From Eledone cirrhosa (lineage: Eukaryota), in contig OZ024747.1 in NCBI GenBank assembly GCA_964016885.1, positions 92,256,001 to 92,320,000 of the forward strand: a stretch of DNA of 64,000 nucleotides, given 5' to 3'. Of the stretch, positions 1,678-59,100 are shown in pieces. Position numbers and translations under genes: made by a program. Each line of letters begins with the position of its first letter. Position 1 is the first letter of the stretch. The notes below the pieces were generated by a model, which saw only the letters and a list, made by a program, of their open reading frames with translations, made no database searches and was not told the origin of the DNA.

Positions 1678-1840
1678 AGAGGAAAATAGTCAGGCAGGAC
1701 CCTGTGGGCTGAGCCCCTGGCCGTTTCGACAGCTCAGCCGCCGGAGTCCTGACTCTTTTCCTATTACCCACTCTACTACCCTAAGTATCGAGTACTCTGG
1801 TGCATTATAGTCCACTTGGTTCCTTACCACACTTCCTTCG

Positions 1841-1843
<3 letters not shown>
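1678..1843 (+). mobile_element. PLE-like short element, family A (variant subfamily)
   Basis: Shares the 3' segment ttcctattacccactctactaccctaagtat...ggttccttaccacacttccttcgtta followed by (TA)n with seven other loci in the window. Confidence 0.65.
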
Positions 1844-1934
<91 letters not shown>

Positions 1935-1936
1935 TG

Positions 1937-3508
<1,572 letters not shown>

Positions 3509-3615: not shown

Positions 3616-4245
3616 ATTAACACTGGTACTGGTATTCAATATATTCTTCTGTGAATAATCGAAAAAATATCTATGTAATTGAGAAAAACGGTGGAACATT
3701 ATTTATTTAGCTCACGTTTTACATTTCTTAAAGAAATTAGTGATCTTTAAATAATAAAAATATCTTTTATATACACCCAACCTTTTATTCCATGACAAAT
3801 TTCTTATCACTTATTATACATTGATTGGTTTCTGGTTGTAACCTATTTGATTCCATATATTGAGATATGTGAAAATTTTCTTCTTTTATGTATTCAATGA
3901 ATATCTAATTTAAGGTTATTTTCTCATTTAACTTATTTTCTCATTCAAATTTAACGATATTTCTAACATACAAATACAGGAAATTTTGGTCATAAACTTT
4001 TTTTCGCCAAAAGCAATTTAGATAAAGCGAAATTCCAAAACACTTAAAGCATAACATTTTTGTAAGATTATATATTTTTATATTTAACTCAGTATTGATG
4101 CACTGTTGTTTTTACAATCTAGTATTCTTGTAAGTTTAAGTAAATATGTGGTAAATAACATATCATATATATTTATTACTGTAGTTATATTGAAATATCA
4201 CGCGCTTATTTACCGGTTTATTTATGATTGTATTGTGTACATATA

Positions 4246-4344
4246 GAGAGTGTCACAAAAAATGTATGCACACTTCAACAGCATTCTAATAAATATTGCC
4301 TGTACAGGTAATGAAAGTGTGTATACATTTTTGGGGACATCCTG
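4246..4344. mobile_element. ~100 bp Tc1/mariner-type MITE
   Basis: Imperfect TIRs of the cagggtgtcccaaaaaatgtatacacactt type with TA flanks. Further copies at 10526..10625 and 42034..42134. Confidence 0.7.
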
Positions 4345-4508
4345 TATATTGCTAATTTATCGAGTGTTATTTATAATCAACTCAACACACACCCATACAC
4401 CCACCCACACCACATATATATATATACATACAAGGAACTTTCAGTTTACGTCTAACAAATTTCTATTAAAGACACTTATAAAATATATTTATATATATTT
4501 ATTTAATT

Positions 4509-4556
<48 letters not shown>

Positions 4557-4684
4557 TATATATAATATATATATATATAATATATATATATATAATATAT
4601 ATATATATAATATATATATATATAATATATATATATATAATATATATATATATATAATATATATATATAATATATATATATAAT

Positions 4685-4740
<56 letters not shown>

Positions 4741-4742
4741 GT

Positions 4743-4858
4743 GAAGGTGTGTGGCTGAGTGGTTAGAGAACTGGATTCGCAATCGTGAGGTTTATGTTCG
4801 ATTCCTGGACCGGGCGAATCGTTATGTCCTTGAGCAAGACACTTTATTTCACGTTGCT
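4743..4858 (+). mobile_element. tRNA-derived SINE, 5' part
   Basis: A box tggctgagtgg, B box gttcgattcc, then gtccttgagcaagacactttatttcacgttgct. A longer copy is at 20005..20348. Confidence 0.7.
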
Positions 4859-6685: not shown

Positions 6686-6957
6686 CTTTAACAAACTCTC
6701 TGTGTAACAGACTGTATAATATGTGGTGTAGTAAATAAATATATATATTTACACCAGGTTCGAACACAAAGGAAGCAAACTCCCACTGTCACTGCCTCTA
6801 TCTCTATTATATTGCCTTTTTATTTAATTCTTGGAATTTGAGAATATTTCCGTCACCCTTCCGCGAGTTCGTTACTTACACAATCTCACTACAGCTGATT
6901 GCTTGAATACATTCAAAAATGGTTTAGATATTTCTTCAATGATGTAAAGGATACAGT

Positions 6958-7436
6958 TTCAGACGGCATGACTATCTTCTCGTTCTGCAGTGGTAAATCC
7001 CTCATCTGCGATGCGACATTCAGTGACACATACTCCAGCGGCAAACTGGTGCAGTCTGTGACTAACCCAGGCTCTGCTGCCCTTCGAACCGAGGAGGGTA
7101 AACTCTCCAAATATCGGTCGTTCTCCGACAGGTTTTCGGTCGAGCTGTGGCAGTGGAGACTTCTGGTGTTCTTCGCCCAAGGGTCACCGCCCTACTCACC
7201 ACCATCGGCACAGAGTTGTCTACACATAGGTGTGAGCCTCACGAGGTGGAATTTCTCTTCTAGTGTGTCTCCCTCACCACCCTCCAGGGAAATGCCTTCT
7301 CTATTCTCTCCACTGGGACCACGGGGCTTCCAGTGTGTGGACGCCCATTTTCTCATAATAGTGAGAGATGGGGAGAACGGGAGAGACGGAGGAAACGACA
7401 GTGGGGGTTTGGCTCCTTTGTGTTCGGACCTGGTGT
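6958..7436 (+). mobile_element. CRE-clade non-LTR element 3' fragment (REL endonuclease) with probable 3' UTR
   Basis: DGMTIFSFCSGKSLICDATFSDT...EEGKLSKY..., homologous to the better-preserved copy at 33085..33515. Confidence 0.7.
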
Positions 7437-7838
7437 ATATGTATATATTTCACACACGATCATAAATCAAGACACTTGACAAACAAATACAAAGAGAAAA
7501 TATTAATCATATTGAAATGAAAGCCATTCATTTAGACAAGGATTAAATGTATTTTATTTTCCTGCTTTAGCCATGCAGGATTTATATGAAAAGAATGTGT
7601 TTATATATATATACAACTTGTATATATATACAACATATTTAGTAGTTACAATTTGTTTGCCTTCTGGTATAACATATATTAATATACAGGACTGTCGGAA
7701 GTTGGTTACTATAATAAATTCATAAAACATGAGAAGGCACACATATATAGTTCCTGGCTGATAATATAATTATAGGTTTTAATATAAGTACATATACATA
7801 CATACATACATACATACATACATACATACATACATACA

Positions 7839-7872
<34 letters not shown>

Positions 7873-7879
7873 CACAGTG

Positions 7880-8190
7880 AGGAAATTACAAGTACAATCC
7901 ATTAATGGAACAGTAAAAATATGTAAAACATTCCAAAATTTCTGCTTTTAATAACTGTATATACACTTGTACAGATACAAAGCATATGGACAGGCACACA
8001 TACAACTCAAACCATACTCATCCACACATAAAATAACATCCATACCTGCACACACACACATGCATGCAGACATGCAGACATAATCTACCTAGTTGATGTT
8101 GTGTAAATTCCAATGAGAGAGTCTTGTGTCTATGTTAGAAACTGACTCTCTCTCTATTGGTAAAAATTTGTGAAATTATAAAACCAGAAG
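7880..8190 (+). mobile_element. 3' fragment of the Dong/R4-type LINE
   Basis: Closely similar to 59232..59531 (ggaaattacaagtacaatcc...aaaccagaag). (TACA)n on both sides. Confidence 0.85.
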
Positions 8191-8209
8191 AACATACTTA
8201 CATACATAC

Positions 8210-8240
<31 letters not shown>

Positions 8241-8857
8241 CATACATACATACATACATACATACATACATACATACATACATCTAACCTTTGACGCAAG
8301 CAGTCGCACATGCGACTTGGGAGACTATTCCTTATATTTAAAATACTATCTCCAACCGTAATCCCACAACTACCAGATTGTTAAATAACTAGATTTTCTT
8401 CTGACAATACGAGTATTCATTGATGACACATTTTATTCGAATTCGTAGAGATATCCGTCTAAATATTGAATTGAAGCCTTGTCACACATTGTCACACTGC
8501 ATTTCCATAAGATAAGAACTAAATTAATGATACACGTGTCTGTGGAATGCTCAGGCACTTATGCATCTATTTCACAAGCAGGCATTTCTGTTAGATCAAT
8601 TTATGCACTCGTCTCAAGAAACGACGGGGGTCCTTACAAGGTACAAGGGCTCTCTTATACCATAAATGTCCTGGCGTCCTAGTGAAAGGTTAAAAACCGT
8701 TTATCAGCGTCTCAGACATTAGCTTAGTACCTTATCAAAATTTCCATTTAATATTCCATAATGGAAATATAAAGTAAATAATAACAAACCGTGTATGAAT
8801 ATAAATATTATTATTCACTTCCTTACTTAGCAAATGTGCATCATCTAAAATATAGTA

Positions 8858-10139: not shown

Positions 10140-10180
<41 letters not shown>

Positions 10181-10183
<3 letters not shown>

Positions 10184-10381
10184 AAAAAGTATGACCCCGA
10201 CGGCAGAGCTCAAGCCGTTTCGACGGCTATTTCTGGACAAATTGAGTCCAGAAATAGCCGTCGAAACGGCTTGAGCTCTGCCGTCGGGGTCATACTTTTT
10301 CCTATTTCCCACTCTACTACCCTAAGTATTGAGTACTCTGGTGCGTTATGGTCCATCTGGTTCCTTACCACAATTCCTTTG

Positions 10382-10384
<3 letters not shown>
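10181..10384 (+). mobile_element. PLE-like family A fold-back element
   Basis: Near-perfect palindrome 10181..10304 centred on ctgga-caaattgag-tccag, followed by the family A 3' end. (TA)n on both sides. Confidence 0.75.
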
Positions 10385-13061: not shown

Positions 13062-15587
13062 TAATAATGACGGGGAAGCAGTGGAGGAATGGGCCATTAC
13101 CCGCGACCTCACAATCATGCACGATGCAAAAGACAATGCATCCTTCCAAAGCGCCCGCTAGAGGAGAGGATATAACCCCGACCTAGCTTTCGTATCATCT
13201 AGACACTACCAGAATTTTGACAAATTAATTGGTGACCCAATACCCAAAACCCAAGTCCCAACACCGACCGATGGTCATCGAAATGAAACCTGTTATCAGA
13301 CAACGAGAGACGGCGCCTAAAGCCAGGTTTAACTTCCGTAAGGCTGGGATCCCCAACATCCGTCCAAACCCACTGCAGTATGATGACTTCCAAACACTGG
13401 TGTGGGAGGCCGCAAAGAAAAATATCCCAAGAGGCTGCAGGAAGTCTTACATCCCAGGACTCAATGAGCAAAACAAAGAAATGTACCAGGAGTACGTCCA
13501 GGTGTATAATTACGACCCATTTGCCATAAACACCATAGAGCTCGGAGAGATCCTGACAGCCTCGATCAACAATGAAAAGAAAGAGCGCTGGCAAGAAGTC
13601 ATAACCAACATCGATATGACTCATAACAGCAAAAACGCTTAGGCAACCATAAAAAAATTAAGCTCTGAAAAGAAACCTCAACCAAGAATAGCTGCCGTTA
13701 CGAACGAAGTGGCACACCAACTGCTACTCAACGGTAAGCCCAAGAATAGAGAAAAGGAATATCTAAGGGAAATGAAACAGGACATGAACCGTGCCATGCA
13801 CAACTCTGACGAAAACTTTGAACCATTTAACATGGAAGAGCTGCATGCAGCTATGAAACACCTTAAACCCGGGAAGGCAGCCGGCCTGGATGGCATCACA
13901 GTGGAGGTGATACTGCACTTTGGAGAAATGGCGAAAACGTGGCTGCTGTCGCTCTTTAACAACTGTGCATCAGCCTGTCAAATACCAAGGACATGGTGAA
14001 GAGCTAGAGTGGTGGCTCTCTGGAAGCCTGGCAAAGACTTGGCATCTCCATAGAGCTACCGACCAATATCCTTACTGTGCACCCTTTACAAATTATACGA
14101 GCGCATGATCATGGCTCGCTTGTCCCTTACTGTAGAAGAACAACTATCTCCAGACCAGGCTGGCTTCCGACCCGGCCGATCATGCTGCGGTCAAGTACTG
14201 AACCTGACTCAATACATCGAGGATGGATTTGAGGCCAAACAAATTACCGGAGCAGTCTTTGTCGACCTCACAGCTGCCTATGACACCATTAACCACAGAG
14301 CACTTCTTTTAAAGGTGGCCCAAACAGTTCGGAACACCACTACAGTCCGCATAATTGAGTCACTGCTCATCAATCGGCGATTCTTTGTTGAGATGGATGG
14401 CAGGCGAAGTAGGTGGAGGGTCCAGAACAACGGACTCCCACAAGGCTCTGTGCTAGCCTCTATGGTGTTCAACATTTACACAGATGACCAGTCGCAGTTC
14501 CACAATATTCGTAGATTCATATATGCGGATGATATCTGCATCGCAACACAGTCAGGCTCCTTTGACACATTCGAGGAAAGACTATCAAATGCCCTGACAA
14601 CTCTCTCTGCATACTACAAAAAAATGGTACCTTAACGCTAATGCCAGCAAAACGCAGGTGTGTGCCTTCCCTCTTAACAACCACCAAGCAAACAGGAAAC
14701 TAAAAATCAGATTGGGCAACAATGAACTGGAAAACCACCCTCATCCAGTTTACCTCAGAGTTGCCCTTGATAGAACGCTCTCTTTCAAACAACACATAGA
14801 CAAACTTAAAAGTAAACTGGCAACTAGAAATAATCTCCTCAGCAAACTAACCAACACCAGCTGGGGTGCAGATCCCATAACACTGAAGCAAACAGCACTG
14901 GCACTCTGCTACTCCACCGCAGAATATTGTTCACCAGTATGGGCAAGGTCGTGCCATGCAAACAGAGTTGACCCAGAGTTGAACAAATCATGCCGGATGA
15001 TCACCGGAATATTAAAAGCAACTCCCCTTCCAGCCGTATACACTCTTGCCAGCATTCCACCGCCCCACATACGACGAGAGGTCAACGCAAAAACTGAACG
15101 GTACAAACAACACGATCCCAGGCATCCACTCTATGGCCACCAGGAAATAAGAAGACGATTAAAATCTCGAAAAAGCTTCTTAACCGTGGATAGCCTGGAG
15201 CATGCACAATCGGCGGCATACAGGTTGGAGAAGTGGAGGGAGAGTGACCGCCGCCCACCCAACGCGGCCTTACTAAGCCCAAATGAAAGCCTCTGCAATG
15301 GAACATCTCTTAGCAGAAAGAATTGGGTAACCCTAAACAGGGCCAGAGCCAGAACGGGCAAAACTGGAGACAACCTCCACAAGTGGGGATTGGCCACCTG
15401 CGCTGAGTGCCCTTGCGACGAGACCTCCCAGACCAAAGCCAACATCCTCCGTCGGTGCTCACTGGGACCCACATGCTCCGACCAAGACCTGATGGAAGCA
15501 AACGACGCTGCACTTCAATTGATACGGCACTGGCGCGACAAGATATGATATGATGATATATATTAATATATATATATATATATATTT

Positions 15588-15865
15588 ATTAAATAACAGA
15601 TTAAAGTTTAAGCAAAGAATCGCTGCTTTCACCCTTAACGGGATCTTCTGAAACTAACAAAGTTAATCTGTAAACGCAGAACTGGATATTTCAAAAAACG
15701 TTGCAACCGGAGGAAGACAGGAAGACGATACTTTGGTTCGTGGAAACGTTCGCAACCGGAGGAAGACAGGAAGACGATACTTTGGTTCGTGGAAACGTTC
15801 GCAACCGGGGGAAGACAGGAAGACGATACTTTGGTTCGTGGAAACGTTCGCAACCGGAGGAAGAC
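15588..15865 (-). mobile_element. PLE-like family H fragment with internal 49-bp tandem triplication
   Basis: Matches 26130..26300. The unit gcaaccggaggaagacaggaagacgatactttggttcgtggaaacgttc is repeated ~3.3 times at 15703..15865. Confidence 0.65.
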
Positions 15866-16744
15866 ATATATATCTTTAGGTTTGTTGGTTCACCACTGGA
15901 TAGAATTGGTCATTCCGTATGGTAAATCTTGGTGTAATATTGTGGAGAGTACTCAAAGTAGTGCAGTTCACTCGTCTTCGTTTGTGCAGTGGTGGTGCGA
16001 ATACGGAGTTAATTATAAATAAAATAACAGGAGGCTGGACTGGTGTAAATCCTTGAAAGGTTTATTATACTATGATCATTTCAATGACCGGGTTCCATAT
16101 GAATCCGGTGATATCATCAGGTATTGGAATATAACAAAGGAATATGTAAAAAAACCATGGGTCCGAAAAATCAGAGACAGAAACAAAGAGGACGACTGAC
16201 CAACTAGCCGCCTTCACCTCGGCCAGTCGCCCTCAAAGTGATGGCAACTGAATCTACTAATGACCATCTGGTGAAGGGGCGAAGGCTTATAATGCACTAC
16301 CACCTCTCCGTCAGAGAAAAAGGGGAAGAAAGAAAGAAAGGAAGAAAGAAGAAAAAAAGGAAGAAAGAAGTCAGCGTAAGGGTCACACTGCATTCATGCT
16401 AGAAAATGCCGCGAAAAATTCTACTCCAAAGAATCTATATTTAACAAAGGCATATAGTGGGTGTCTGTATGGTCTAATGTGTGAACCGAAAATTGGACGG
16501 CTATTTCAGTCCAGAAATAACCGTAGAAACGGCTTGAGCTCTGCCGTCGGGGTCTTGAACATTTTCCTAAATATATATAGTTCGGAATATCAGAAAACAA
16601 AAAGAAGAGGAGTAAATGTTACAAATATTATTAGTTTCACGCTTAGTGAGAGTGGGGTTGTGGTTGCGACGTTTCGGGCATAAGCCCTTCATCAAGAGAG
16701 TGGGGAGAGGAACACCGAGAAGGAGTTAGCGAGAAAAAAGATAC

Positions 16745-20348: not shown

Positions 20349-20614
20349 GGGATGAATGGGTATATTTAAGTCTAAATGATGAGAATAAATTGTTGCTAAA
20401 AGTTGGCTTCATTCATCCTAAATAGATCTCCCACTGATCACCGACCTTAAACCTTATATTACCCTATACCTAGTTCCCATTTCCATCAAATGTAACTCAA
20501 TAATTTGCTCATAATAGTGAGGCATGGGGAGAGCTGGAGAGACGGAAGCAATGACAATGGGAATTTAGCTCCTTTGTGTTCGGACCTGGTGTATATATAT
20601 ATATATATATATAT

Positions 20615-20978
<364 letters not shown>

Positions 20979-22741: not shown

Positions 22742-23110
22742 GGTTATTATTATTATCGATCTATCGCGCAATGTGGTGGTAGTGATGGTAGTAGTAGTAG
22801 CTGTGGTGGTGGTAGTGATGGTAGTAGTAGTAGCTGTGGTGGTGGTGGTGGTGATGGTGGTGGTAGTAGTACCTGTGGTGGTGGTGGTGGTGGTAGTAGT
22901 AGTAACTGTGGTGGTGGTGGTGGTGGTAGTAGTACCTGTGGTGGTAGTGGTGATGGTAGTAGTAGTATTGAGGGTGAGCATGAATGAGAAGAACGTAATA
23001 ACGAAGTAGGTATAAGATCATTCGTTCTCTCGGTTAGGGCTACATTGTTAGCTCAATAATTCTGATCAACACTGACAGAAGGCTGATACTTGTCAAATCT
23101 CGCTACTGTG

Positions 23111-23969
23111 CTCTATTTCAATATTACAAGCTCTATTTCAATATTACAAGCTCTATTTCAATATCACAAGCTCTATTTCAATATCACAAGCTCTATTTCA
23201 ATATCACAAGCTCTATTACAATATTACAAGCTCTATTTCAATATCACAAGCTCTATTTCAATATTACAAGCTCTATTTCAATATTACAAGCTCTATTTCA
23301 ATATTACAAGCTCTATTTCAATATCACAAGCTCTATTTCAATATCACAAGCTCTATTACAATATCACAAGCTCTATTTCAATATCACAAGCTCTATTTCA
23401 ATATCACAAGCTCTATTTCAATATCACAAGCTCTATTTCAATATTACAAGCTCTATTTCAATATCACAAGCTCTATTTCAATATCACAAGCTCTATTTCA
23501 ATATTACAAGCTCTATTTCAATATTACAAGCTCTATTTCAATATCACAAGCTCTATTTCAATATCACAAGCTCTATTTCAATATTACAAGCTCTATTTCA
23601 ATATCACAAGCTCTATTTCAATATCACAAGCTCTATTTCAATATCACAAGCTCTATTTCAATATTACAAGCTCTATTTCAATATCACAAGCTCTATTTCA
23701 ATATTACAAGCTCTATTTCAATATTACAAGCTCTATTTCAATATCACAAGCTCTATTTCAATATCACAAGCTCTATTTCAATATCACAAGCTCTATTTCA
23801 AAATTACAAGCTCTATTTCAATATCACAAGCTCTATTTCAATATCACAAGCTCTATTTCAATATCACAAGCTCTATTTCAATATCACAAGCTCTATTTCA
23901 ATATTACAAGTTCTATTTCAATATCACAAGCTCTATTTCAATATTACAAGCTCTATTTCAATATTACAA
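23111..23969. repeat. 20-bp minisatellite, ~43 units
   Basis: ctctatttcaatat(c/t)acaag in perfect register. Confidence 0.95.
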
Positions 23970-24100: not shown

Positions 24101-24147
<47 letters not shown>

Positions 24148-24149
<2 letters not shown>

Positions 24150-24333
24150 CGAAGGAAGTGTGGTAAGGAACCACATGGACCGTAACGTACTAGAGTACTC
24201 AATAGTAGAGTGGGTAATAGGAAAATGTTCAAGACCCCGACGGCATAGCTCAAGCCGTTTCGACGGCTATTTCAGTCCAGAAATAGACGTCAAAACGGCT
24301 TGAGCTCTGCCGTCGGGGTCTTGAACATTTTCT
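24148..24333 (-). mobile_element. PLE-like family A fold-back element
   Basis: Family A 3' end at (TA)n. Palindrome centred on ctatttc-agtcca-gaaatag. Confidence 0.75.
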
Positions 24334-29471: not shown

Positions 29472-30860
29472 ATGTTTTCTTTATTGACCACAAGGTTTGA
29501 TACAAAGCATAACACTAAGGACAACACAGGATAATACAGGACAATACAGGACGGTACAGGACAATACAGGACGGTACAGGACAATACAGGACGGTACAGG
29601 ACAATACAGGGCGGTACAGGACAATACAGGACAATACAGGACAACACAGGACGGTACAGGACAATACAGGACGGCACAGGACAATACAGGACGGTACAGG
29701 ACAATACAGGATGGTACAGGACAACACAGGACGGTACAGGACAATACAGGACGGCACAGGACAATACAGGACGGTACAGGACAATACAGGATGGTACAGG
29801 ACGGTACAGGACAATACAGGACGGTACAGGACAATACAGGACAATACAGGACGGTACAGGACAGCACAGGATGGTACAGGACGGTACAGGATGGTACAGG
29901 ACGTTACAGGACAATACAGGACGGTACAGGACAATACAGGACAGCATAGGACGGTACAGGACAGCACAGGATGGTACAGGACAATACAGGGCGGTACAGG
30001 ACAATACAGGACAGCACAGGACGGTACAGGACAATACAGGACGGTACAGGATGGTACAGGACAATACAGGACGGTATAGGACAATACAGGACAATACAGG
30101 ACGGTACAGGACAATACAGGACAATACAGGACGGTACAGGACAATACAGGACGGTACAGAACAATACAGGACAGCACAGGACGGTACAGGACAATACAGG
30201 ACAACACAGGACAATACAGGACGGTACAGGACAATACAGGGCGGTACAGGGCGGTACAGGACAATACAGGACAGCACAGGACGGTACAGGACAATACAGG
30301 ACGGTACAGGACAATACAGGACGGTACAGGACAATACAGGACAACACAGGACGGTACAGGACAATACAGGACAACACAGGACAATACAGGACAATACAGG
30401 ACGGTACAGGACAATACAGGACGGTACAAATGGGCATTTCTGCGTGTAAAAAAAAAAAAAAAAACAGAGGATGTAACAAAAAAGAAACAATGAAAAATTC
30501 CCCAATAAGGGGGAGACTTCTGAGAGTTGCTCGTGGAGAAAGTCCACAAAAAAAGCCATGGTCACCCTGACCGTTAGAGCAAGTGCCCTCTTCCAGTTTT
30601 CCTCCTACGATGCCACAGGCATACGCTCAGGGTAGGCCCATTCATACGGGCCATTCTTGCCTCTCTCACCCATCTTTCAACAAACTTCCCTCTCCACCCT
30701 GCCGTTCCTTTTCAGGTAAAACCTGAAAAAGTTAATGAGGACGTCACCGAAGAGGAAAGTACCCGTCTTCAACCATTTCAGACGCGTCCACCATACGATC
30801 TCTTTTACCATGGCCACCAGGCAGATAAAAACTGCCTGCCCTTCCCAGGAACTGATAGCG
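29472..30860 (-). mobile_element. Tx1/L1 3' fragment with expanded internal minisatellite
   Basis: 30430..30860 and 29472..29520 are reverse-complement homologues of about 2975..3508. Confidence 0.85.
29521..30430. repeat. 10-bp minisatellite, ~91 units
   Basis: Alternating acaatacagg / acggtacagg and variants, in exact 10-bp register. Confidence 0.95.
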
Positions 30861-31720: not shown

Positions 31721-33084
31721 TCACTCTATTACGTGTTCCAGCCGACAAGATGAAGCCAGGCTGGAACACGACCATTTTCTTAATAGTTATTTCTGAAAGA
31801 GTCTGCTGTGTTGCAAATTTCCAAAAATTCAACAGAACCATCATTCATTGAATTAAGTGTTCCTTGTCGTGTCCTTTTCCCTTCTCTATTAACTCTTGCA
31901 TATACGTGGCTTTATTGCCTTGCTTGGACGGAATAAGAAAAAAAAACATAACTTAAACCGCCATTGTCATAGCTTTCATTTTAAAAATCATTAGTTATAT
32001 ATATATCAGAACTTGACTTAGTCGCTACGATGCCTCCTTTGGTTGCATAAATATCAGTTTTACTTAACAGCTTGGATTACATATGATCGTGTGTGATGTT
32101 AGTAACAGATTTCAAGTGGCAGTAAATAGCTGAGCATACACTATCCGTTGGTCCATTATCCTAGACTTGCTCTACCTTCTCCGGGCGAGGTATTTCCCAC
32201 TATAAGTTTGTAAACAACATTAAAATAAAAACATAACGTTTAAAGTATTGTGAAAAAAAAATATTTTACGAGGTCAAAAGATCAAGTGAGTAATTGATGT
32301 TTTATGACTACAGACTGTGGGATATATTATTACCCAGGCATTACAAACTGTTTCTTTAATGAAAGAAAATATCAGCCGGTCAATAATTTCTAAGCAATAA
32401 TCCTTTGTAAAGAATAATTTCTAAGCAATAATCCTTTGTAAAGAATTCATCAAAAGTGAAAAGAGTGAAATATAATTCCAATTGGAGTAACTAAACAAAT
32501 ATATATCAAAATGGCAGCTCTTTTATATCAAAGACAACGATTCCGTAGTCAAATTCTACAAAATATTTGAGCAGACAATATATTGAGAGACTTTTCTTTT
32601 TTCAATACTACACCCATTCATTCCTGAGAAGGTCGTTGGGACAGAGCCCTCAAACACTACTTCCAGTGGGTCTTGTCAGAAGTAATCGTCTCCAACTGAT
32701 CCGGTTGGATCCCCAAGCGAGACCAGCCAACTAATGGATGTTAACCAAACCAATGTTTATGACCGCTAGAAAATTTATTTTAATTGATTTTCTCAGCCCA
32801 ATCCTTCTATACAAGAATTATAACTAGATAATTAACCCTTTAGTGTTTAAACCAGCTGTATCCTCCAGAATTCTCTCACCTCTTTCTGTTCAAACCGGAC
32901 ATAACTGGCCACTCATACTGATGTTAAGGTATTGTTCTCAAAATAAATAACATCAACATTTCATAGATTCGATATTATGTGAGATAATTATATGAAGTAA
33001 AGCCTTTACTGGGGAAATACAATAGTAAATATAGAGTAATGTAAATGCTAAAGAGTTAAACAGGTATATAATACATATTAAGCA

Positions 33085-33515
33085 TGACTTGGACGCTGCA
33101 GGCTTCCCTTCCCAGCTCGAGCCGGTGGGGCTGGATCGAGGGGACGGCAAAAGGCCAGATGGCATGACCATCTTCCCGTTCCGCGGTGGCAAACCCCTCG
33201 TCTGGGATGCCACTTGCACCGACACTTTCTGCAACCGCAACCTGGTGCAGTCTGCGACTGACCCAGGTTCTGCTGCACGTCGGGCTGAGGGGGCCAAACT
33301 CCTCAAATACCAGTCGCTCTCCGACATGTTTGCGGTCGTTCCCCTGGCAGTGGAAACTGCTGGTGTCCTCGGCCCCAAGGCTACCTCCTTACTCACCACC
33401 ATAGGCGCTGAGCTGGCCAGCCGTAGGTGTGAGCCCCGCGAGTTGGAGTGGCTTTTCCAGCGCGTCTCCCTTGCCGTCCTCCGGGGAAACTCCTTCTCCA
33501 TTCTGTCCGCCGCGT
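33085..33515 (+). mobile_element. CRE-clade non-LTR 3' fragment (restriction-like endonuclease)
   Basis: LEPVGLDRGDGKRPDGMTIFPFRGGKPLVWDATCTDT...KLLKY...VPLAVETAGVLG...LFQRVSLAVLRGN (PD..D REL motif). Confidence 0.85.
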
Positions 33516-33665
33516 ACGTACCATTACATTAGTTAAATACCATTCTTTCATCTCATAAATATAAAATATACCGTAAATGGTATAACTGAAGTCGTAGACT
33601 ATAAATACTTATTATATATAATACATAGAGCACTCTTTCCTTTACCCTTCCTACGCAAATACTTA

Positions 33666-35164: not shown

Positions 35165-36488
35165 ACTTACTTGTACTTGTACTTGTGTCGACATTCACTC
35201 TGGACGGGATTCAGGCGAAGGCGAAGACAGGTGGTAGGTACCCGATCAACGTGTCGGCAGCGAAGAATGCGGCGGAGACGGTCATTGTCGAAGACCTCCA
35301 GCCCTCGTTGATCGACTACCCTCATAGGCCATGTTTCACAGCCATAGTGGAGGATAGTGCGAACGACGGCCTGGTAGATTCGCCCCTTGGTCGCCGAGGT
35401 GATCTCTCTTCTGTCCTACAGACACCGCTGGAGGCGCCCAAAAGCGGATCTGGCAGCACCTATGCGACGTTTGACCTCGGCTGCGCCCTGTCCCGCTGGA
35501 ACCACTGTTGAGCCCAGGTCCACGCCCTCAAGGCGAGACCAGTGACGTCATGATTTTCGACTTGGCGGCATTGATTCGTAGACCAACAGCGGCGGCTGCA
35601 GTGTGCACCCTTTCGAGAGCACCCTGTACATCTGTCCCGTTAGCGCCCATCATCACGATGTCATCCGCGTAGGCCACTCCGTCACCCCGACTCCTCTCCC
35701 GACCTCTACGCCCGAGTAATCCCGGAGCGCTATGTTGATAGTGTAGTCAATGACGTAGTTAAAGAGAGTTGGCGATAGCGCACACCCCTGCCGAACACCT
35801 GTCCCAACATCGAACGACTCCGTTTCCCCACTATAGACCCTCACTCGAGCCCGAGTCGACCGGTTGTAGCCTTGTATGAGACGAAGCAGCTTCACTGGGA
35901 TGCCGTCCGCCTGCATTATACGCCATAGGGCTTCCCGATCTACCGAATCGAAGGCAGCTGCAAAGTCGATAAAGCAGAGGACAGTAGGTTGCTGATGTGC
36001 CCATCGTTGTCCCAGGACACGCCGGAGAATGAAGATTTGATCAACGCACCCCCTCACCGGACGGAAGCCGCCCTGAGAAGGACGGGTACGGACAACATGG
36101 ATGGCCTGGAACCTCTTCAGCAGAAGAATTGCGAAGGTTTTGGCAGCAACGTCAATTAAACTGATACCCCTGTAGTTGGAACACAGTTTCCTGTCGCCTT
36201 TTTTGAAGAAGGGTAGGAGAGTTGCCTCGCTCCAGTCACCAGGGAACTACTCCGTCGCCCACGCCGAGGAGAAGACTCGATGGAGCCAAGCTGCGAAGAC
36301 ATCAGGCTCGGCCTTGTAGACCTCAGCTGGAACGCCATCTTCGCCTGGCGCCTTGTTGTTCCGGAGATGTGCCAGGACACTACGTACCTCCTCAACCGTT
36401 GGAGGGACAGTGCTGCACCCGTATTCTTCTCCAGAAGGCTGCAGGTAGGTTGGCGTGGGTGGTGGCGGGTGGTTGAGCAGCTCGGACA
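35165..36488 (-). mobile_element. RTE-type LINE RT fragment inserted into a family H flank
   Basis: NNKAPGEDG, RGCVDQIF.LR, FIDFAAAFDSVDR, GVRQGCALSP.LF. (CAAGTA)n tail. Apparent TSD aatatatat. The flanks join to the reverse complement of 26290..26375. Confidence 0.85.
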
Positions 36489-36524: not shown

Positions 36525-36657
36525 ATTTATTAAAATAACAGATTAAAGTTTAAGCAAAGAATCGTTGCTTTCGCCCTTAACGGTTTCAGAAGATCCCTTT
36601 AAGGGTGGAAGCCACGATTCTTTGCTTAAACTTTAATCTGTTATTTTAATAAATATA
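36525..36657. mobile_element. PLE-like family H fold-back element
   Basis: Inverted arms turning within the CCC-TTAAC-GG stem II sequence. Further family H pieces at 36850..37017, 43319..43373 and 47447..47505. Confidence 0.65.
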
Positions 36658-36839: not shown

Positions 36840-36885
36840 TATATATATATAGATTAAAGTTTAAGCAAAGAATCGCTGCTTTCAC

Positions 36886-36933
<48 letters not shown>

Positions 36934-37820
36934 GTGAAAGCAGCGATTCTTTGCTTAAAATTTAATCTATATATATAGAGAGAGATTAAAGTTTAAGCAA
37001 AGAATCGCTGCTTTCTCCTATATATATATATATATATATATTGATGCCAACATTGCCTTTCGTCCTTTCGAGGTCGTTAAAAAAGTTCCAGTCTAGTACT
37101 GGGGTCGATTCGTCCTCTATATCTCTCTCTCATTTCCTCTCTCTCACTTTCTATCTTTCTCTGGGAGAAATCTGCTGTAATCAGGCCTGGAGAGGGATGA
37201 GCTCCGCCATGCTTAAAATGCTCAAGAAACGTCGTATACGTCGTATACGGTGCCCCTACGGCTCTATTGGGAGTTGCCGGACCATACCATATATATATTT
37301 ATATATATTTTGATAGAAGTAAAAGCTTCTCCAACCATTACTCTGAATTTCGCGTTGCCGATTATTCAATGGTTGATAAATGGTGATAATTTATAAGAGA
37401 ACATATTCTTAGGTACGTGAAAATATGGTTCATCAACGAGATTCGATTAGTTACACAAAAATCTTTAGACCATTCGTCACATATTCATCTATTTAATCTT
37501 CAATCGCAGGACGTATTACATCTAACTATTCACGTAATAAAAACATGGTATTTTTATAACATAAGTATGAAGTGTGCACAACATACAAAAGGAAAGAAAA
37601 TGGTTGATGTTAAAGTTTTAGTGTTAAGAAATAAGTGGATTTTGTTTTTAATGTGAGAAATATATCGTTTCAGTCAGTCGGTATTGAAAGGTTCAAGAAA
37701 ATATTGATTGGCGAGTCTGCAAGGATTCACCAATTCCGAGCTCGATACTGTTAACGACTGCAGGCAAGACTGAAAGATAATCCTGATGGCCAAAAGTGTA
37801 GTGAGAACGGTCTGGGCGTG

Positions 37821-39142: not shown

Positions 39143-39173
<31 letters not shown>

Positions 39174-39174
<1 letters not shown>

Positions 39175-39368
39175 ACGAAGGGAGTGTGGTAAGGAACCAG
39201 ATGGACCATAACGCACCAGAGTACTCAATACTTAGGGTAGTAGAGTGGGTAATAGGAAAATGTTCAAGACCCCGACGGCAGAGCTCAAGCCGTTTCGACG
39301 GCTATTTCTGGAGCCAGAGATAGCCGTCGAAACGGCTTGAGCTCTGCCGTCGGGGTCTTGAACATGTT

Positions 39369-39372
<4 letters not shown>
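39174..39372 (-). mobile_element. PLE-like family A fold-back element
   Basis: Palindrome centred on tctgg-ag-ccaga, (TA)n on both sides. Confidence 0.75.
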
Positions 39373-39407
<35 letters not shown>

Positions 39408-39561: not shown

Positions 39562-39788
39562 GTAAGAATATTTTCGAAACAGCGATTGGGTTTGAAATTA
39601 TTATAAATATAAGCTATCGCCGTATTTTGACTAAAGAAATTAAAGAAATTATTTAGCCTGATAGTGGGGTTAAGAACCCTCGTAGAAATGGAAAAAGATG
39701 AGTATTGACGTACATTGGAGTCGAACCCACATCTTTGGTTATCTAGACCACTGTGCTACCATTTACACCAACACATCACCCAACACCA

Positions 39789-46747: not shown

Positions 46748-47453
<706 letters not shown>

Positions 47454-49685
47454 TAACAGATTAAAGTTTAAGCAAAGAATCGCTGCTTTCACCCTTAACG
47501 GGATCGTAGCCCTCTTTGGATTTTAGTCTTCAAATTTATTATTATTACTATCCTATCCGGATCTAGCTGTCGAAACGGCCGGATCTCAGACGTCGTGGTC
47601 CTGACTCTTTTCCTATTACCCGCTCTACTACCCTAAGTATTGAGTACTCTGGTGCGTTATGGTCCACCTGGTTCCTTACCACACTTTCTTTGTTATATAT
47701 ATATATATATCGGACATATTTTTTGCTATCACATTATATGCCTTCAGGAGTCTTCCTATCATTGCCTAATCAAAGCATACTACACCACAACACCCTTTTG
47801 CCTTCCTTCCATATTCTGTTTACCTATCCATATGCGGCATACGATATCACCATAGTAACAATAAACCTGCCACCAACCTTTGTGTTTCCTACATTCTGCA
47901 AGCTATCCTACTTCCTGAATTGTAAACAAATGTGTTGAACCTTTGTAAAATCCTATTCTTGACATTTTCAAAACTAATGTTGCTCCTTAAACACTGATCG
48001 CACCATTAAATCTACATTGATTCTTATTTTGTCTCTAATTCTATTCTACACATAACGAAAACAATTTCAAACATGTGTAAACGTGTCTGGTTGTTTTTAA
48101 TAGAAACCTTTTTTTTTTTCACAACGAGAATCTACACTAAATTTTCAAAACATATGACATTGTATTCCATCCTACAAAAAGTAACATCTCTGTGTCTGCT
48201 TCCTATCAACCTATATCCCAAAGATAAAAGAGACATTTGTAATCACATAAGTCAGTGTGGTGTCTCTAAAGTCAGAATACAGATACCAACATGATTCCTG
48301 CATTCTGATGTCACTTATTAGGAATCATTCGTTATTTAAAACTTTGCTGAAAGCGATTCTTTTTCTTTTGATATCCGAACTTTCGATAAAAAATGCACAA
48401 TGATGATATGAACCTGGCACCTATCTCAATTTCATGCATAATCCTTTCATTTCTTTTCAATATTCTCAATATCCTCAAACCTAGTGGTAGGCATTTTTGC
48501 AAAAACTTTAACCACCAGACCTCCATCTTTGTCTACAGTTTGTGCTGCATACATCAAATTACTGAAATGCAGAGTGTGTATCAGTTACATCTGCAGTACC
48601 ATCTGAAAACAACTTCAAAGCCTATGTGAACTTCTCTTTTGATTCAAATGTAAAATGATATATTTCCAATGACAATCTGCTTAAAGAAATATTACATATG
48701 CAAATATTTCCTCTAGATGTTCGTTGAATTTGAACTAAATATACGAATAGTTCTAAACAAACTGAGTCCATGAATAGGTCTCTATCCCATGATTCATCTA
48801 TATTACTTCACATATGTTTTTAATAGCATTGGATAAGCATTACAAGCGGAATTTTCGTTCCAACAACATAAAAATTAATAACTCCATCAAAATGTACAAA
48901 ATCAATAGTATGAAAGCTTTTCCAGCGGAGACGTAAAACCAATCAAAGAGAAAGCTGGTTTGATACTTTCTTCATCAGAGCGTGGCCTTATTAAAGCTCG
49001 ATTGTACAAACAGCAGTGAACAGAAACGTAGATAATGAGAGTTGCCTAGCGCTAGATAGATATAAAGTGGCGAATTTAGTGTAGTAGAGAGTTTGTAATT
49101 TAAAACAATCCTTGAAGATTGTTGATATTAGCACAGAAATAGGAAACAAAAATTAAAGCAAAACACCACAAACGCATCAACGCTTTATATTTATCGAATA
49201 GAAAGCAATAATCCTAATCTCTTATTTATATTTTGTGCTGATAGAATTATATATTCCTTAATCATTTAAGAAAGTAATTTCCACCATTCACTGTAATATC
49301 CAAGATTTCGTCAATCTATACGAAATTATTATAACAATCAGCTATATATATTTGCTACATCCAATGTGTATATCTGTTTAGTAACTCGGATATAGTAATC
49401 TGATATATATTTATCTCTGTCTTTTACCATGTAAATGTTTTCATAGTGAATGTAGAATACATAACACTGGTTTATGAATTATTCATCAACTAGCACAGTT
49501 CATTTTTTATCAGTAGGTTGTTATAATATAACACCTGCTTCTATGTTGAATATGTCATCCTTTCGATTTCAATAAATCTCCATACAGGGTCAAGTTTCTG
49601 AATAATATATAAGTACCTTACTGCTTATTTATGTGTCTCTCAGTGTCTTCCTCTGCATGTTTGCGTTTCAATACACACACACACA

Positions 49686-51198: not shown

Positions 51199-51251
<53 letters not shown>

Positions 51252-52467
51252 TAACGAAGGAAATGTGGTAAGGAACCGGGTGGACCATAACGCACCAAAG
51301 TACTCAATACTTAGGGTAGTAGAGTGGGTAATAGGAACAAGTAAGACCCCGACGGCTGAGCTCAAGCCGTTTCGAGGGCTAATTCTGTACTGAATGAAAA
51401 TTTATTCTGGTATTAGAATAGCCGAGCTTATCAAGGGGTAATTCCATATATGGTCAAAGAGATAATCACCAGGATTGGTCACATCACAAGTTAGTAGTAA
51501 ATCTGTAATGGCAAATTGGTGGGGGAAGGGGTAGCTAAACCTGCCGGTAGGAGAAAAAGGGAGAGGGGGTGGAGTAGACCCATTCAAGCGTTGGTAGTGC
51601 TAGCTACAGCTGGGCGTGAGGTCAAAGAGGATACTGGGGAGGGGGGGGGGGGTCGAAACGGTAAGTAGAACAATGAAGGGTAAAACTATAAAAGGTACTG
51701 AGAGAGAAAAAAAAAATAAGCAAAGTCTGGTTACTAAGACTTAAGTCTCTCGCTATTGCTAGGCTAAAGAAATACATAAATAAATAAATAAATAAACAAA
51801 TAAGTGAATAAAAGAATAGATAAATAAATTTTAAAATATATATATATATATATATATGTAATGAAGAATAAAAAAATAAATAAATATAATAAAAATAAAC
51901 TAGGTGGGACGGAAATAAAGGGACCCTTATACGAGGTATAAGTGCGTGTATCGTACGGTGACGGGTCAACAAAGGGGGGGGGCCAAAATACTAAAGAGAC
52001 TAACACGAAATAATAAAGGTTTCTACCCCAATCACAGCAATAGCGAGAGACTTAAGTCTTAGTAACCAGACTTTGCTTATTTTTTTTTTCTCTCTCAGTA
52101 CCTTTTATAGTTTTACCCTTCATTGTTCTACTTACCGTTTCGACCTCCTCCCCCTCCCCCTCCCCAGTATCCTCTTTGACCTCACGCCCAGCTGTAGCTA
52201 GCACTACCAACGCTTGAATGGGTCTACTCCACCCCCTCTCCCTTTTTCTCCTACCGGCAGGTTTAGCTACCCCTTCCCCCACCAATTTGCCATTACAGAT
52301 TTACTACTAACTTGTGATGTGACCAATCCTGGTGATTATCTCTTTGACCATATATGGAATTACCCCATGATAAGCTCGGCTATTCTAATACCAGAATAAA
52401 TTTTCATTCAGTACAGAATTAGCCGTCGAAACGGCTTGAGCTCAGCCGTCGGGGTCTTACTTGTTCC

Positions 52468-52470
<3 letters not shown>
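51252..52470 (-). mobile_element. Longest family A PLE-like element, with ~430-bp inverted arms
   Basis: Arms 51331..51760 and 52036..52470, spacer 51761..52035, (TA)n on both sides. Confidence 0.85.
51346..51439 (-). ncRNA. Type I hammerhead with U3-A8 core (family A)
   Basis: ACCCC-TTGATAA-G..GGCTATTCT...AGAATTAGCC..C-GAA-ACGGC(TTGAGCTCA)GCCGT-C^GGGGT. The plus-strand arm copy (52362..52455) has ATGATAA. Confidence 0.65.
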
Positions 52471-52515
<45 letters not shown>

Positions 52516-52516
52516 C

Positions 52517-52547
<31 letters not shown>

Positions 52548-52725
52548 CACATATATATATATTTGATATATCTCATGAAATGATACAGCCAATTTTCCAC
52601 ACAATACAATTACTTAGCACCCCGAAAGTTTAATTAGGAATATACTCAGGTATTTCCTAATGTTTGTTGAGTGAGTTGGAATTTGGCCGGAGTATCGCTA
52701 TTAGCTTTCTCCGATTTTGTATTTA

Positions 52726-56198: not shown

Positions 56199-59100
56199 CT
56201 AAATGTTAAAAAAGGTTCATTGATTATTCAATGAATATAGTTTTACAATAGATTAAAAGCACTCAACAAGGAAATTTTCTGCCAAGACTGGAATTGATGA
56301 AGGTATTAAAATGACAATGTTTAATAAAAAAACAAATAATGAAATAATGAAATATTGACGAAATAGGGGATGAATATTTACGACGGATAAAAACCCCAAC
56401 ATTTTGGCAAATCAACGCCTGTTTATATGCCTTAGCAACGACAGTGAAGCATTATCTTGGTGATAGCAGAGATATTTACAAGAACAGAACACCACCAAAA
56501 ATACCATCATATATAACTAAAGTAGAACAAAAGATTGCTGACCTACGAAAAAACATAGGATATGTGACAATGCTCCTTACATGCAAACAAACACAAAAAA
56601 ACTCACTCCTCACTAACAAAGAGTGACAAATAAAGTAAAGACGATGTTTGGTAACAGTAGAACCAGAACTCTCCAATATAAGCTGATCACCTTCAAACAA
56701 GAATTGAGAGCTGTTAGAGAAAAACGCCGATACCTGAAGAAGGTAGATGAGAGAAAAGTGATTAATAAAAGATTCAGACGAAACCAAACATCAGTCTATA
56801 GAGATATGAAGGGCAAAATAATAAATGTCACTGAGGCCCCATCCCAGAAATACATAGATTCCTTTTGGAGCAAAATATGGGGTGAAAAGAAGAATTTCAA
56901 CCAAGATGCAGTGTGGCTAAGAGAAATCCGAAAGAACTATTGCTCCTACACTACAACAAAAACATACGAAATAAGTGAGGGTACCCTTGAGACTGTGATA
57001 GGAAAACTCCAAGATAAGAAAACACCAGGAAGAGACATGATTGTCGGCTACTGGTACAAAAAACTGACATTCTATCGGAGGTATCTTACTGACCTCTATC
57101 AACAAGTTCTTAAGGGAGATACACTAATACCAGAATGGTTGACATTAGCACAAACATTACTGGTCCCCAAGAACAAAGACACCCACTTGGCAAAAAACTA
57201 CCGATCCATTGCATGCCAGAACCTGATGTATAAGATGTATACAGCCTGCCTGAACCTATTCCTCCAAGATCACTGAAAATAATAACATCATCACAGATGA
57301 ACAAGCAGCTGGAGAGAAAGGGTTTTGGGGATGTGCTGAACAACTCCTAATCAACAAAACTGCGATGTCGGATGTGCGACAACTTAGAAGGAATATGGCT
57401 ACAGTCTGGCTGGACTACAGGAAAGCTTTCGATTCTGTTCCCCACTCTTGGATGATAGGGGCCCTCCAACTTGCTAAAGTCCCAGACATTATTGTCAGAG
57501 CCATAGAGAGGTTGTCTTCTTATTGGGCTACTATCCTAAGGTTAAAGATAGAGAGGGAGGACTCTATTTTCACTGATAAAATAAAATATTGCAGGGGTAT
57601 ATTTCAGGGGGACAGTCTCTCTGTGATATTATTCATCTTGTCATTAAACCCCTTGTCCTCTCTGCTCAAGAAATGTGAGGAATACATCATTGGCTCACAG
57701 GAGGACAGATATACGAACCTAACCCATAATTTCTTTGTGGACGATCTGAAACTCTATGCCAAGAACATGGATGGCATGAAGAAAAATCTTGACCTGGTTA
57801 CCACGTTCTCAAAGGATATAGGAATAGAGTTTGGCCAAGATAAATGCTCATACATGATTGTAAAGTGGGGGGAAACAACAGCCCAATCTAGCAACATTGT
57901 CATCAATGGCCTAACTGTTTCACCGATATCTGATGAGGACTGCTACAGATACCTGGGGATAGATGAGAACATATCCTATAATGGCGTCTGTAATAAAGAA
58001 CGCGTAACCAGGGAATACTACACCCTATTAAGAAAGATCTGGTTATCGGAACTCTCTGCGCAAAACAAAACAGTGGCTCACAATGTGTTCGCTGTGCCTG
58101 TCCTAACACCAACGTTTGGAATACTTAATTGGACGATAGACGAAATCCGAGCAGTTGATGTTGGAACTCGAAAAATACTAAACACCACCGGAAACTTCCA
58201 CATCAACAGTGAAATAGACCGCCTTTACTTGAAACGTAAGCAGGGAGGCAGAGTCCTAACATCAGTCCAGACAACATTTGAATGTCGCATCATATCTCTC
58301 CGAATATATCTACGAACCTCGAAGCGTAGGAGCCCGTTTCTCGAGCAAGCCTATCTGCATGAAACAGATAATATCATGAGAGTTGGGAAGGAACTCCTCG
58401 AGAGATATTCCCTGTGTGATAATCAAAAATTCACACCCAGGGATGTCGCTCAGCAGTATCGCAGTGAATCCATGGATGAAAAACTGCATGCTTATCAGGA
58501 AAAAATCATGCATGGATATGTTGCCAGGAAGCTCCAGAGTGAGAGTAATACAGATAAGGAAAGTAGTCTATCTTGGACCAACAACCGTTATATTGGCTCC
58601 CACTTTGAAGGATACGCTTTTGCAATCCAAGAACAGGAGATTAACACGAAATACCTGATTCACAAAAGAGATAGGGATGCAGGCAAAACACCTAGATGTG
58701 ATAACAAGTGCAGACTCTGCAGAACTAACATCGAGGATATCACCCATGTCATCAGCAGCTGTCCAAAGATGTCATCGCAGTACTATCTACCTATGAGGCA
58801 TGATGTAGTGGCCAAAGCACTGTACAATGCAGTTCGTAAAAAAAGATAGCCTCGATAATAAACACATTAAAAGCTACAGCAATGTGGAAGACATCCATGT
58901 ACATAATATGAAAGATTACTGGTGGAATGTTCCAGTAAAAACCCCAATAAAATGAAGGCATAACAGACCAGATATTATGATATGGGACAGGGAGAAGAAA
59001 GCATGCACAGTAGTGGAAATTAGCTGCCCAGCAGATGCCAATATAATATCAAAGATTAGTGAAAAGGAGAATAGTTATGCAGAACTGATGAGAAATCTGC

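What the first reader, a model, noticed from the sequence alone, without database searches (positions are those of the whole stretch)
51252..52470. Family A hides a hammerhead with a compensated U3-A8 catalytic core
Seen: on the minus strand at 51346..51439, stem I ACCCC/GGGGT, core UUGAUAA instead of CUGANGA, a long stem II, a 5-bp stem III ACGGC/GCCGT and a GUC site. Established: positions 3 and 8 form a Watson-Crick pair in the active hammerhead, and U3-A8 is a tolerated exchange. Inference: the double change preserves function and would be missed by CUGANGA searches. Only this locus shows the core, and its other arm reads A3-A8, so the family consensus is unconfirmed.
Basis: partly seen in the sequence, partly recalled or inferred. 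Interest (0 to 1): 0.75.

Follow-up and report, generated by a model that had tools for sequence, protein, structure and literature searches.

The report
Drifting hammerhead core in Penelope retrotransposon
This is a hammerhead-shaped RNA motif at the end of a truncated Penelope-type jumping gene; its U-A core pair is the family's majority state and an already published variant, but relatives also multiplied with that pair wobbled or mismatched, so the motif likely cuts only weakly, and cutting is untested.

Summary
The motif is real and lies as described. The locus is a non-coding, head-to-head, 5'-truncated copy of a (TA)n-targeting Penelope-like element whose protein has Hydra-clade motifs. 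U3-A8 is the consensus: 558 of 576 matches in this subfamily and 4,966 of 6,501 in the wider family. The other arm's A3 is a private mutation (1 of 576). U3-A8 is already published, in natural hammerheads (2011) and in Penelope elements (2014). The idea of a preserving double change needs correcting. Two trees give C-G, then U-G, U-A, C-A, and U-A again, and the mismatched C3-A8 stage left 1,466 matches. U4, G5, A6, A9 and G10.1 stayed fixed across the A subfamilies. Most copies begin inside stem II at an initiator-like site, so the whole motif likely forms only at a transcript's 3' end. A slow cutter fits best, because long copies must be reverse-transcribed across the cut site. No RNA run was available, so cleavage is untested. 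The scan found the same family and readings before on other DNA of this genome.

The parts
51252..52037 (-). Long arm: 5'-truncated 3' end (3' UTR, pseudo-LTR and tail) of a Penelope-like element; no ORF
   Evidence: matches the non-coding 3' end of the full-length copy L031 (7622-8393)
52036..52470 (+). Short arm: inverted, 5'-truncated second copy ending about 20 nt past the predicted cut site
   Evidence: 98.2% identical to 51331-51760; the same end recurs in many loci
51346..51439 (-). Type I hammerhead motif with 5-bp stem I, long interrupted stem II and 5-bp stem III
51428..51434 (-). Core 5' strand U3-U4-G5-A6-U7-A8-A9 (U3-A8 in place of C3-G8)
   Evidence: sequence; subfamily consensus in 558 of 576
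51350..51353 (-). GUC triplet; predicted cut between 51351 (C17) and 51350
   Evidence: hammerhead numbering (established knowledge); cleavage untested
51352..51370 (-). Stem III and loop 3, a near-perfect 19-nt palindrome predicted to pair between two copies (dimer form)
   Evidence: duplex -30.7 versus single hairpin -7.1 kcal/mol
51389..51393 (-). Initiator-like YYANT element inside stem II; its A (51391; 52410 in the other arm) is the likely transcription start
   Evidence: copy 5' ends pile up here; A at a fixed 18 nt before G12 in 26 of 29 aligned copies
51252..51331 (-). Tail of about 80 nt between the two alternative 3' ends (about +20 and +97 from the cut site)
   Evidence: analogous to the tail between two reverse-transcription start sites in PMC11167929
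52362..52455 (+). Second hammerhead copy with a private U3-to-A change
   Evidence: the only A3 among 576 matches
51203..51253 (.). (TA)n target, left flank
52468..52571 (.). (TA)n target, right flank

Best explanation
The locus is a dead, head-to-head truncated insertion of a Penelope-like retrotransposon, likely of the Hydra clade, whose end repeat carries a type I hammerhead motif with a U3-A8 core that is predicted to cut its own RNA only slowly. Shown: the anatomy, the link to an RT plus GIY-YIG ORF, the consensus, and the amplified U3-G8 and C3-A8 relatives. Inferred mechanism: transcription starts inside stem II of the upstream repeat, so that copy is split and the full motif forms only in the downstream repeat or in read-through RNA. 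The element protein nicks both strands of (TA)n DNA and starts reverse transcription at two sites about 20 and 97 nt past the cut site. Starts in the upstream repeat run off at the RNA 5' end and give the many short fold-back copies. Starts in the downstream repeat must cross the cut site to reach the ORF, so fast cleavage would cost full-length copies unless the RNA is re-ligated. Selection would therefore keep the fold and the fixed core bases but tolerate a weakened 3-8 pair. Cleavage may need a dimer through the palindromic stem III or help from protein.
For: Longer copies carry the RT and GIY-YIG ORF between two hammerhead-bearing repeats plus an inverted copy. Core states among 6,501 matches: U3-A8 4,966, C3-A8 1,466, U3-G8 56, C3-G8 13 (the U3-A8 figure by subtraction). 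The repeat tree, the ORF tree and protein identity to the youngest copy (99, 95, 92, 88, 82-87, 75-81, 64-72, 53-57%) give one ladder; young U3-A8 copies form a clade with bootstrap 95 inside the C3-A8 grade. In a core-blind sample (first 100 of 5,170, hand count) U4 100, G5 97, A6 100, A9 97 and G10.1 94 are kept while position 7 is G 69, U 13, A 11, C 7. Across 11 subfamily consensuses those five positions show no change, against a zero-change share of 0.36 at flanking sites (rough p 0.006). Of 43 arms in 0.8 Mb of evenly spaced DNA plus the window, 8 reach the core and 14 begin 16-18 nt before G12. In DNA-run contigs 12 of the 15 listed joints (of 70) enter at 52410-52416. Published: low activity and dimer use of Penelope hammerheads (PMC4209133); protein-assisted cleavage that is not needed for insertion in vitro (PMC11167929).
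Against: No cleavage or transcript data were obtained. The 3' half of the motif overlaps the likely promoter, so its conservation has a second explanation, and an upstream stretch outside the hammerhead is just as unchanged. Covariation is modest: 5 pairs change on both sides (57 of 500 shuffles reach that), score 0.125 (10 of 500), on a structure drawn from these same sequences. The B and C families were found with patterns that demand most core bases. Many inner nodes of the ORF tree have bootstrap 61-80 and the C2 outgroup is unplaced (26). The contig runs come from one study and may be the assembly's own sample. Pfam gave no hit for 4 of 4 proteins, and Hydra placement rests on motifs and a by-eye comparison, not on a tree with published members.
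Confidence: 0.62

Rival explanations
1. Fully active compensated ribozyme: U3-A8 works as well as C3-G8 and cleavage is needed to process the element RNA, perhaps to a circle that is then reverse-transcribed.
For: The lineage reached a Watson-Crick U3-A8 pair twice, and the youngest subfamilies with intact ORFs carry it. U3-A8 hammerheads are reported active in vitro (PMC3088659 section 8, citing earlier work I could not read). One contig joint has both arms starting exactly at the cut site (51350 to 52451), and loci L133 and L073 look similar.
Against: 1,466 C3-A8 matches, on copies with their own ORFs, and a long U3-G8 stage show that mobility did not need the pair. The pairwise-mutant scan found only the G-C swap rescued (PMC9901934, one type III ribozyme). 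No clear excess of copies starting at the cut site was found.
Confidence: 0.18
2. Decayed ribozyme: cleavage was lost when the lineage left C3-G8. The fold is now kept for promoter function, protein binding or reverse-transcription start sites.
For: No large amplified subfamily has C3-G8 (13 of 6,501, of which 9 are scattered A-family copies). The 3' half sits at fixed spacing after an initiator-like element. Hammerhead mutants did not impair insertion of another Penelope element in vitro (PMC11167929). A competing fold is close in energy in several subfamilies (hammerhead-fold probability 0.02-0.51).
Against: The 5' core bases U4, G5, A6, A9 and G10.1 lie upstream of the likely start site and stay fixed while neighbours 3, 7, 8 and 10.2 change repeatedly. 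Changes at 3 and 8 in amplified subfamilies stay pyrimidine-purine. A variant with G3 and A10.1 exists in only 2 copies.
Confidence: 0.17
3. Shifted register: in G7 subfamilies C3 pairs with G7, so the C3-A8 state is a hidden C-G pair with position 7 deleted and an extra A before G10.1.
For: Nearly all listed C3-A8 matches have G7; an extra base between positions 9 and 10.1 is common in Penelope hammerheads (PMC4209133).
Against: The C3 subfamilies form one grade, so the link with G7 is one event. G7 persists after the return to U3. That loss of position 7 is poorly tolerated is recalled, not checked.
Confidence: 0.05

Closest known systems
U3-A8 minimal hammerheads of Cercyon Penelope-like elements, Schistosoma mansoni (Cervera and De la Pena 2014, PMC4209133; parts 1-2 of 4 read)
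   Same: type I motif in the pseudo-LTR of a Penelope-like element, U3-A8 core (about 1,300 hits there), G10.1-C11.1, palindromic stem III region, copies on opposite strands 100-700 bp apart
   Different: those have little or no stem III and a 7-8 bp stem II; this has a 5-bp stem III and a stem II arm of about 54 nt; in the parts read no wobble or mismatch stages and no start site inside the motif are described
Hydra clade of C-terminal-endonuclease Penelope-like elements (Craig et al. 2021, PMC8557442; section 11, passages, supplement parts 1-2 and search hits read)
   Same: single RT-then-GIY-YIG ORF, RW(K/R), DKT, CxCX5C linker, CxxC and CxH motifs, (TA)n target, pseudo-LTR hammerhead, inverted 5'-truncated copy; by eye the ORF aligns motif by motif with published Hydra proteins
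   Different: all 26 Hydra rows of their File S2 have C3-G8 and loop 2 of 3-10 nt; the unit here is about 3.6 kb against generally under 3 kb; the tail is about 80 nt against the usual 30-40
Natural U3-A8 hammerheads (Perreault et al. 2011, PMC3088659; section 8 read)
   Same: covariation of the 3-8 core pair to U-A
   Different: scattered examples, without a datable series of intermediates
PAc Poseidon element hammerhead (Frangieh et al. 2024, PMC11167929; parts 1-2 of 4 read)
   Same: two reverse-transcription start sites bounding a tail, both target strands extended, hammerhead near the ORF start
   Different: canonical C3-G8 core, different clade, biochemically tested

Membership tests
Type I hammerhead ribozyme | three helices around a junction, open at stem I | tested here: met
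   minimum-energy fold of the left arm; 85.5% of cells paired against 19-56% for slid controls
Type I hammerhead ribozyme | fixed core U4, G5, A6, A9, G12, A13, A14, A15.1-U16.1 and an H17 cut site | tested here: met
   sequence; core-blind sample for positions 4-10.1
Type I hammerhead ribozyme | Watson-Crick pair between positions 3 and 8 | tested here: met
   U3-A8 at this arm and in 558 of 576 subfamily matches; not met in the right arm (A3-A8) or in 1,466 C3-A8 relatives
Type I hammerhead ribozyme | stem I to stem II tertiary contact | not tested
   no contact was searched for
Type I hammerhead ribozyme | match to an Rfam hammerhead model | tested here: not met
   no hammerhead hit at E up to 10 in 51255-52470; none at the gathering score in 5 of 5 loci, 3 of them C3-G8
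Type I hammerhead ribozyme | site-specific self-cleavage | not testable with these tools
   needs a bench assay or RNA reads
Penelope-like element, endonuclease-bearing | single ORF with RT and C-terminal GIY-YIG, pseudo-LTRs, inverted truncated copy, tail | tested here: met
   L031 layout; 717-aa ORF; domains read from motifs, Pfam silent
Hydra clade | RWK, DKT, CxCX5C, CxxC and CxH motifs | tested here: met
   RWR, DKT (DKI in one copy), CxC-x5-C, CNLC and CKH read
Hydra clade | absence of the CCHH motif in the endonuclease | tested here: inconclusive
   by eye only one cysteine inside the GIY-YIG core; no alignment to references
Hydra clade | insertion into (TA)n | tested here: met
Hydra clade | length generally under 3 kb (a tendency, not a rule) | tested here: not met
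   unit about 3.6 kb
Hydra clade | branches with published Hydra RTs | not tested
   published sequences were seen but not placed in a tree
Non-LTR retrozyme | tandem non-coding units of a few hundred bases, each with a hammerhead | tested here: not met
   inverted truncated arms of a protein-coding element

The most novel reading that the evidence does not exclude
This lineage is a datable natural walk of a ribozyme's catalytic base pair through wobble and mismatch states (C-G, U-G, U-A, C-A, U-A). The element is selected to keep its hammerhead slow, because its promoter fires inside the ribozyme and reverse transcription must cross the cut site. Core-pair strength would then tune how many full-length, start-site and cut-site copies are made, and the subfamilies are ready-made alleles for asking what Penelope hammerheads are for.
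Probability: 0.3. Interest if true: 0.62.

Novelty: new member of a known kind. Interest (0 to 1): 0.33.

Why it matters
As flagged, it matters little: U3-A8 hammerheads in Penelope elements have been in print since 2014. The useful part is the series. What hammerheads do for Penelope elements is open (PMC8557442 calls it unclear; PMC11167929 found cleavage dispensable in vitro). One genome here holds age-ordered subfamilies with four states of the core pair in nearly the same scaffold. Measuring their rates would show whether an element can spread with a crippled ribozyme, and whether slow cutting is favoured. It also shows that descriptors fixed on C3-G8 or short stem II miss thousands of such motifs.

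Tried and rejected
Expression: no RNA holder listed, which says nothing either way. Contigs showed one both-arms-at-cut joint and no leading loose end there among the rows shown (280 rows not shown). This is inconclusive. A suspected core-dead subfamily (G3 with A10.1) is 2 copies only. Rfam: microsatellite-driven miRNA hits only in the 150 of 274 rows listed for the window, plus a tRNA. The first per-copy tree was distorted by chimeric upstream flanks and was dropped. Selenocysteine read-through was considered for in-frame stops and rejected, since other copies have ordinary codons there. RT stalling at stem II as the cause of short copies was considered; it is less favoured because the 5' ends reach through the helix base to a conserved initiator-like A, but it is not excluded. 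A TATA-like word about 29 nt upstream is absent in family B and was not pursued. Not held, so not read: Przybilski and Hammann 2007, Nelson and Uhlenbeck 2008, Martick and Scott 2006, Lunse et al. 2017; they may hold rates for U3-A8, U3-G8 and C3-A8. Supplements of PMC4209133 were not opened and may show mismatch cores.

Full report
Observation. The minus strand at 51439-51346 reads as a type I hammerhead exactly as flagged, with U3 at 51434, A8 at 51429 and the predicted cut between 51351 and 51350. The region is two inverted arms in a (TA)n tract: 51252-52037 on the minus strand and 52036-52470 on the plus strand, 98.2% identical over about 430 nt. The plus arm has A3. The hammerhead fold is the minimum-energy structure of the left arm but is not unusually stable (z -1.30). 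Rfam gives no hammerhead hit here or in five other loci, three of which have the canonical core.

What carries it. The window lies in a 3.0-Gb genome. [quoted passage not shown] L031 shows the whole layout: repeat with hammerhead (4105-4768), ATG about 190 nt past the cut site, ORF, 3' UTR, second repeat (7735-8397) and an inverted truncated copy. The window locus matches only the non-coding 3' end. The protein has RWR, DKT, CxCX5C, CxxC and CxH motifs and the element targets (TA)n, the features given for the Hydra clade (PMC8557442 section 11). It resembles published Hydra proteins by eye. Pfam found nothing in 4 of 4 pieces, and no tree with published members was built.

Consensus at 3 and 8. 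With both positions left free, the window's subfamily gives 576 matches. Ten are not U3 (8 C, 1 G, and 1 A, which is the window's right arm). Eight are U3 without A8. So 558 are U3-A8 and none is C3-G8. A wider pattern gives 6,501 matches with 0 in the reversed control: C3-G8 13, C3-A8 1,466, U3-G8 56 and by subtraction U3-A8 4,966. These count arms, not insertions, and exact patterns under-count old copies.

History. I sorted 226 hammerhead arms into 14 subfamilies; 213 were assigned, 8 left unassigned and 5 dropped. The G8 copies inside A1-A3 are over-sampled because I searched for them, which makes the A2b consensus show G8 wrongly. The consensus tree is a ladder that follows mean copy divergence: C1 (C3-G8, 19%), B (mostly U3-G8, 13%), A0 (U3-G8, 7%), A1 (U3-A8, 5% in A1b), A2 (C3-A8, 3-5%), A3 and A4 (U3-A8, 1-2%). 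That tree included the core columns. An independent tree from the 3' part of 20 ORFs gives the same order when read from C1, with young U3-A8 copies (bootstrap 95) inside the C3-A8 grade; inner support is 61-92 and C2 is unplaced. Protein identity falls in the same order (18 of the 20 B, C and other old loci and several A0 loci had little or no linked ORF, and only those with one entered the tree). The change was therefore stepwise, and a mismatched stage spread with its own ORFs.

Is the core still constrained? In a sample anchored outside the core (first 100 of 5,170, counted by hand), position 3 is U 84, C 14, G 2 and position 8 is A 98, G 2. U4, G5, A6, A9 and G10.1 are kept in 94-100, while position 7 takes all four bases. 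Across 11 A subfamilies these five sites never change, while 3, 7, 8 and 10.2 change repeatedly; with a zero-change share of 0.36 at flanking sites this is roughly p 0.006 (crude, and the upstream consensus is noisy). Helix covariation in 29 copies is modest. B and C were found by patterns that require the core, so they add no independent test.

Where copies begin and end. In 80 evenly spaced 10-kb stretches plus the window there are 43 arms; 8 reach the core and 14 begin 16-18 nt before G12. That A lies in a YYANT word in 23 of 29 aligned copies, at fixed spacing from G12 even in family C. Contigs of DNA runs agree: 12 of 15 listed joints enter at 52410-52416, and 52410 is that A (one study, possibly the assembly's own sample). 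That YYANT is an initiator consensus is recalled; an internal promoter with an initiator is published for Penelope (PMC2377424, passages). Arms end at about +20 or +97 from the cut site, like the two reverse-transcription starts that bound the tail in PMC11167929.

Mechanism. The steps from here are inferred. A transcript that starts inside stem II lacks the 5' core strand, so only the downstream repeat can fold fully. Reverse transcription that starts beyond that repeat must cross the cut site, as it did in every one of the 6,501 intact arms. Fast cleavage would separate the start sites from the ORF unless the RNA is re-ligated, so a slow ribozyme would be tolerated or favoured. Stem III and its loop form a near palindrome that pairs better between two copies (-30.7) than as two hairpins (2 x -7.1), as in the dimer model for Penelope hammerheads (PMC4209133; PMC6765202, passages). 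Evidence that cleavage happens in the host is thin: one joint with both arms starting at the cut and about three similar loci, with no shown excess.

Prior knowledge. Natural U3-A8 cores, active in vitro by earlier work, are in PMC3088659. The same swap in Penelope repeats, about 1,300 hits, is in PMC4209133. The 26 Hydra rows in File S2 of PMC8557442 are all C3-G8. In one type III hammerhead only the G-C swap rescued activity (PMC9901934), so tolerance depends on context. Searches listed no paper on a C3-A8 or U3-G8 series or on a start site inside a Penelope hammerhead; the library is partial and four key papers were not held. Earlier notes of this scan on other DNA of this genome reached the same family, the mismatch stage and the start-site idea; they are not independent support.

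Verdict. The feature is real, a new member of a known kind. The flagged novelty is already published, and the remaining interest lies in the natural series of core states as a test set.

Noticed in passing
window 1731-1843, 10179-10384, 16505-16569, 20614-20878, 24147-24322, 39173-39373, 47564-47695: Seven further short copies of the same family, mostly fold-back pairs that begin in stem II and lack the core; about 31 arms per 0.8 Mb elsewhere suggests on the order of 100,000 arms genome-wide (rough extrapolation).
   Followed up: yes
G000:C440 38327, 64749, 91113, 117974 (L330): Four near-identical U3-G8 hammerheads of a divergent sister family spaced about 26.5 kb apart, suggesting a large tandem or segmental repeat.
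   Followed up: no
about 12-22 nt upstream of stem I, window 51446-51455 (-): A short palindrome is unchanged across the A subfamilies although it lies outside the hammerhead; it could be a promoter or protein-binding element.
   Followed up: no
window 15587-15656, 36529-36598, 36840-37041, 47447-47516: A second small repeat family forming fold-back pairs around (TA)n; may be another Penelope-like end.
   Followed up: no
window 13229-15548, 1811-3070, 35653-36246, 56617-58849: Broken RT-like ORFs of non-LTR retrotransposons (read by eye; not searched).
   Followed up: no
window 6899-7465 and 33035-33532: Two related short ORF remnants resembling the C-terminal end of a non-LTR retrotransposon protein (by eye).
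   Followed up: no
window 39706-39777 (-): tRNA-like Rfam hit above the gathering score (37.1 bits), possibly a SINE head.
   Followed up: no
window 23110-23969 and 29518-30428: Minisatellites of 20-nt period (43 and 46 copies).
   Followed up: no
L045:6794-8149, L038:5092-5901, L048:4853-5410: More distant Hydra-like ORFs inserted next to family copies, showing further related families and nesting in shared (TA)n tracts.
   Followed up: no
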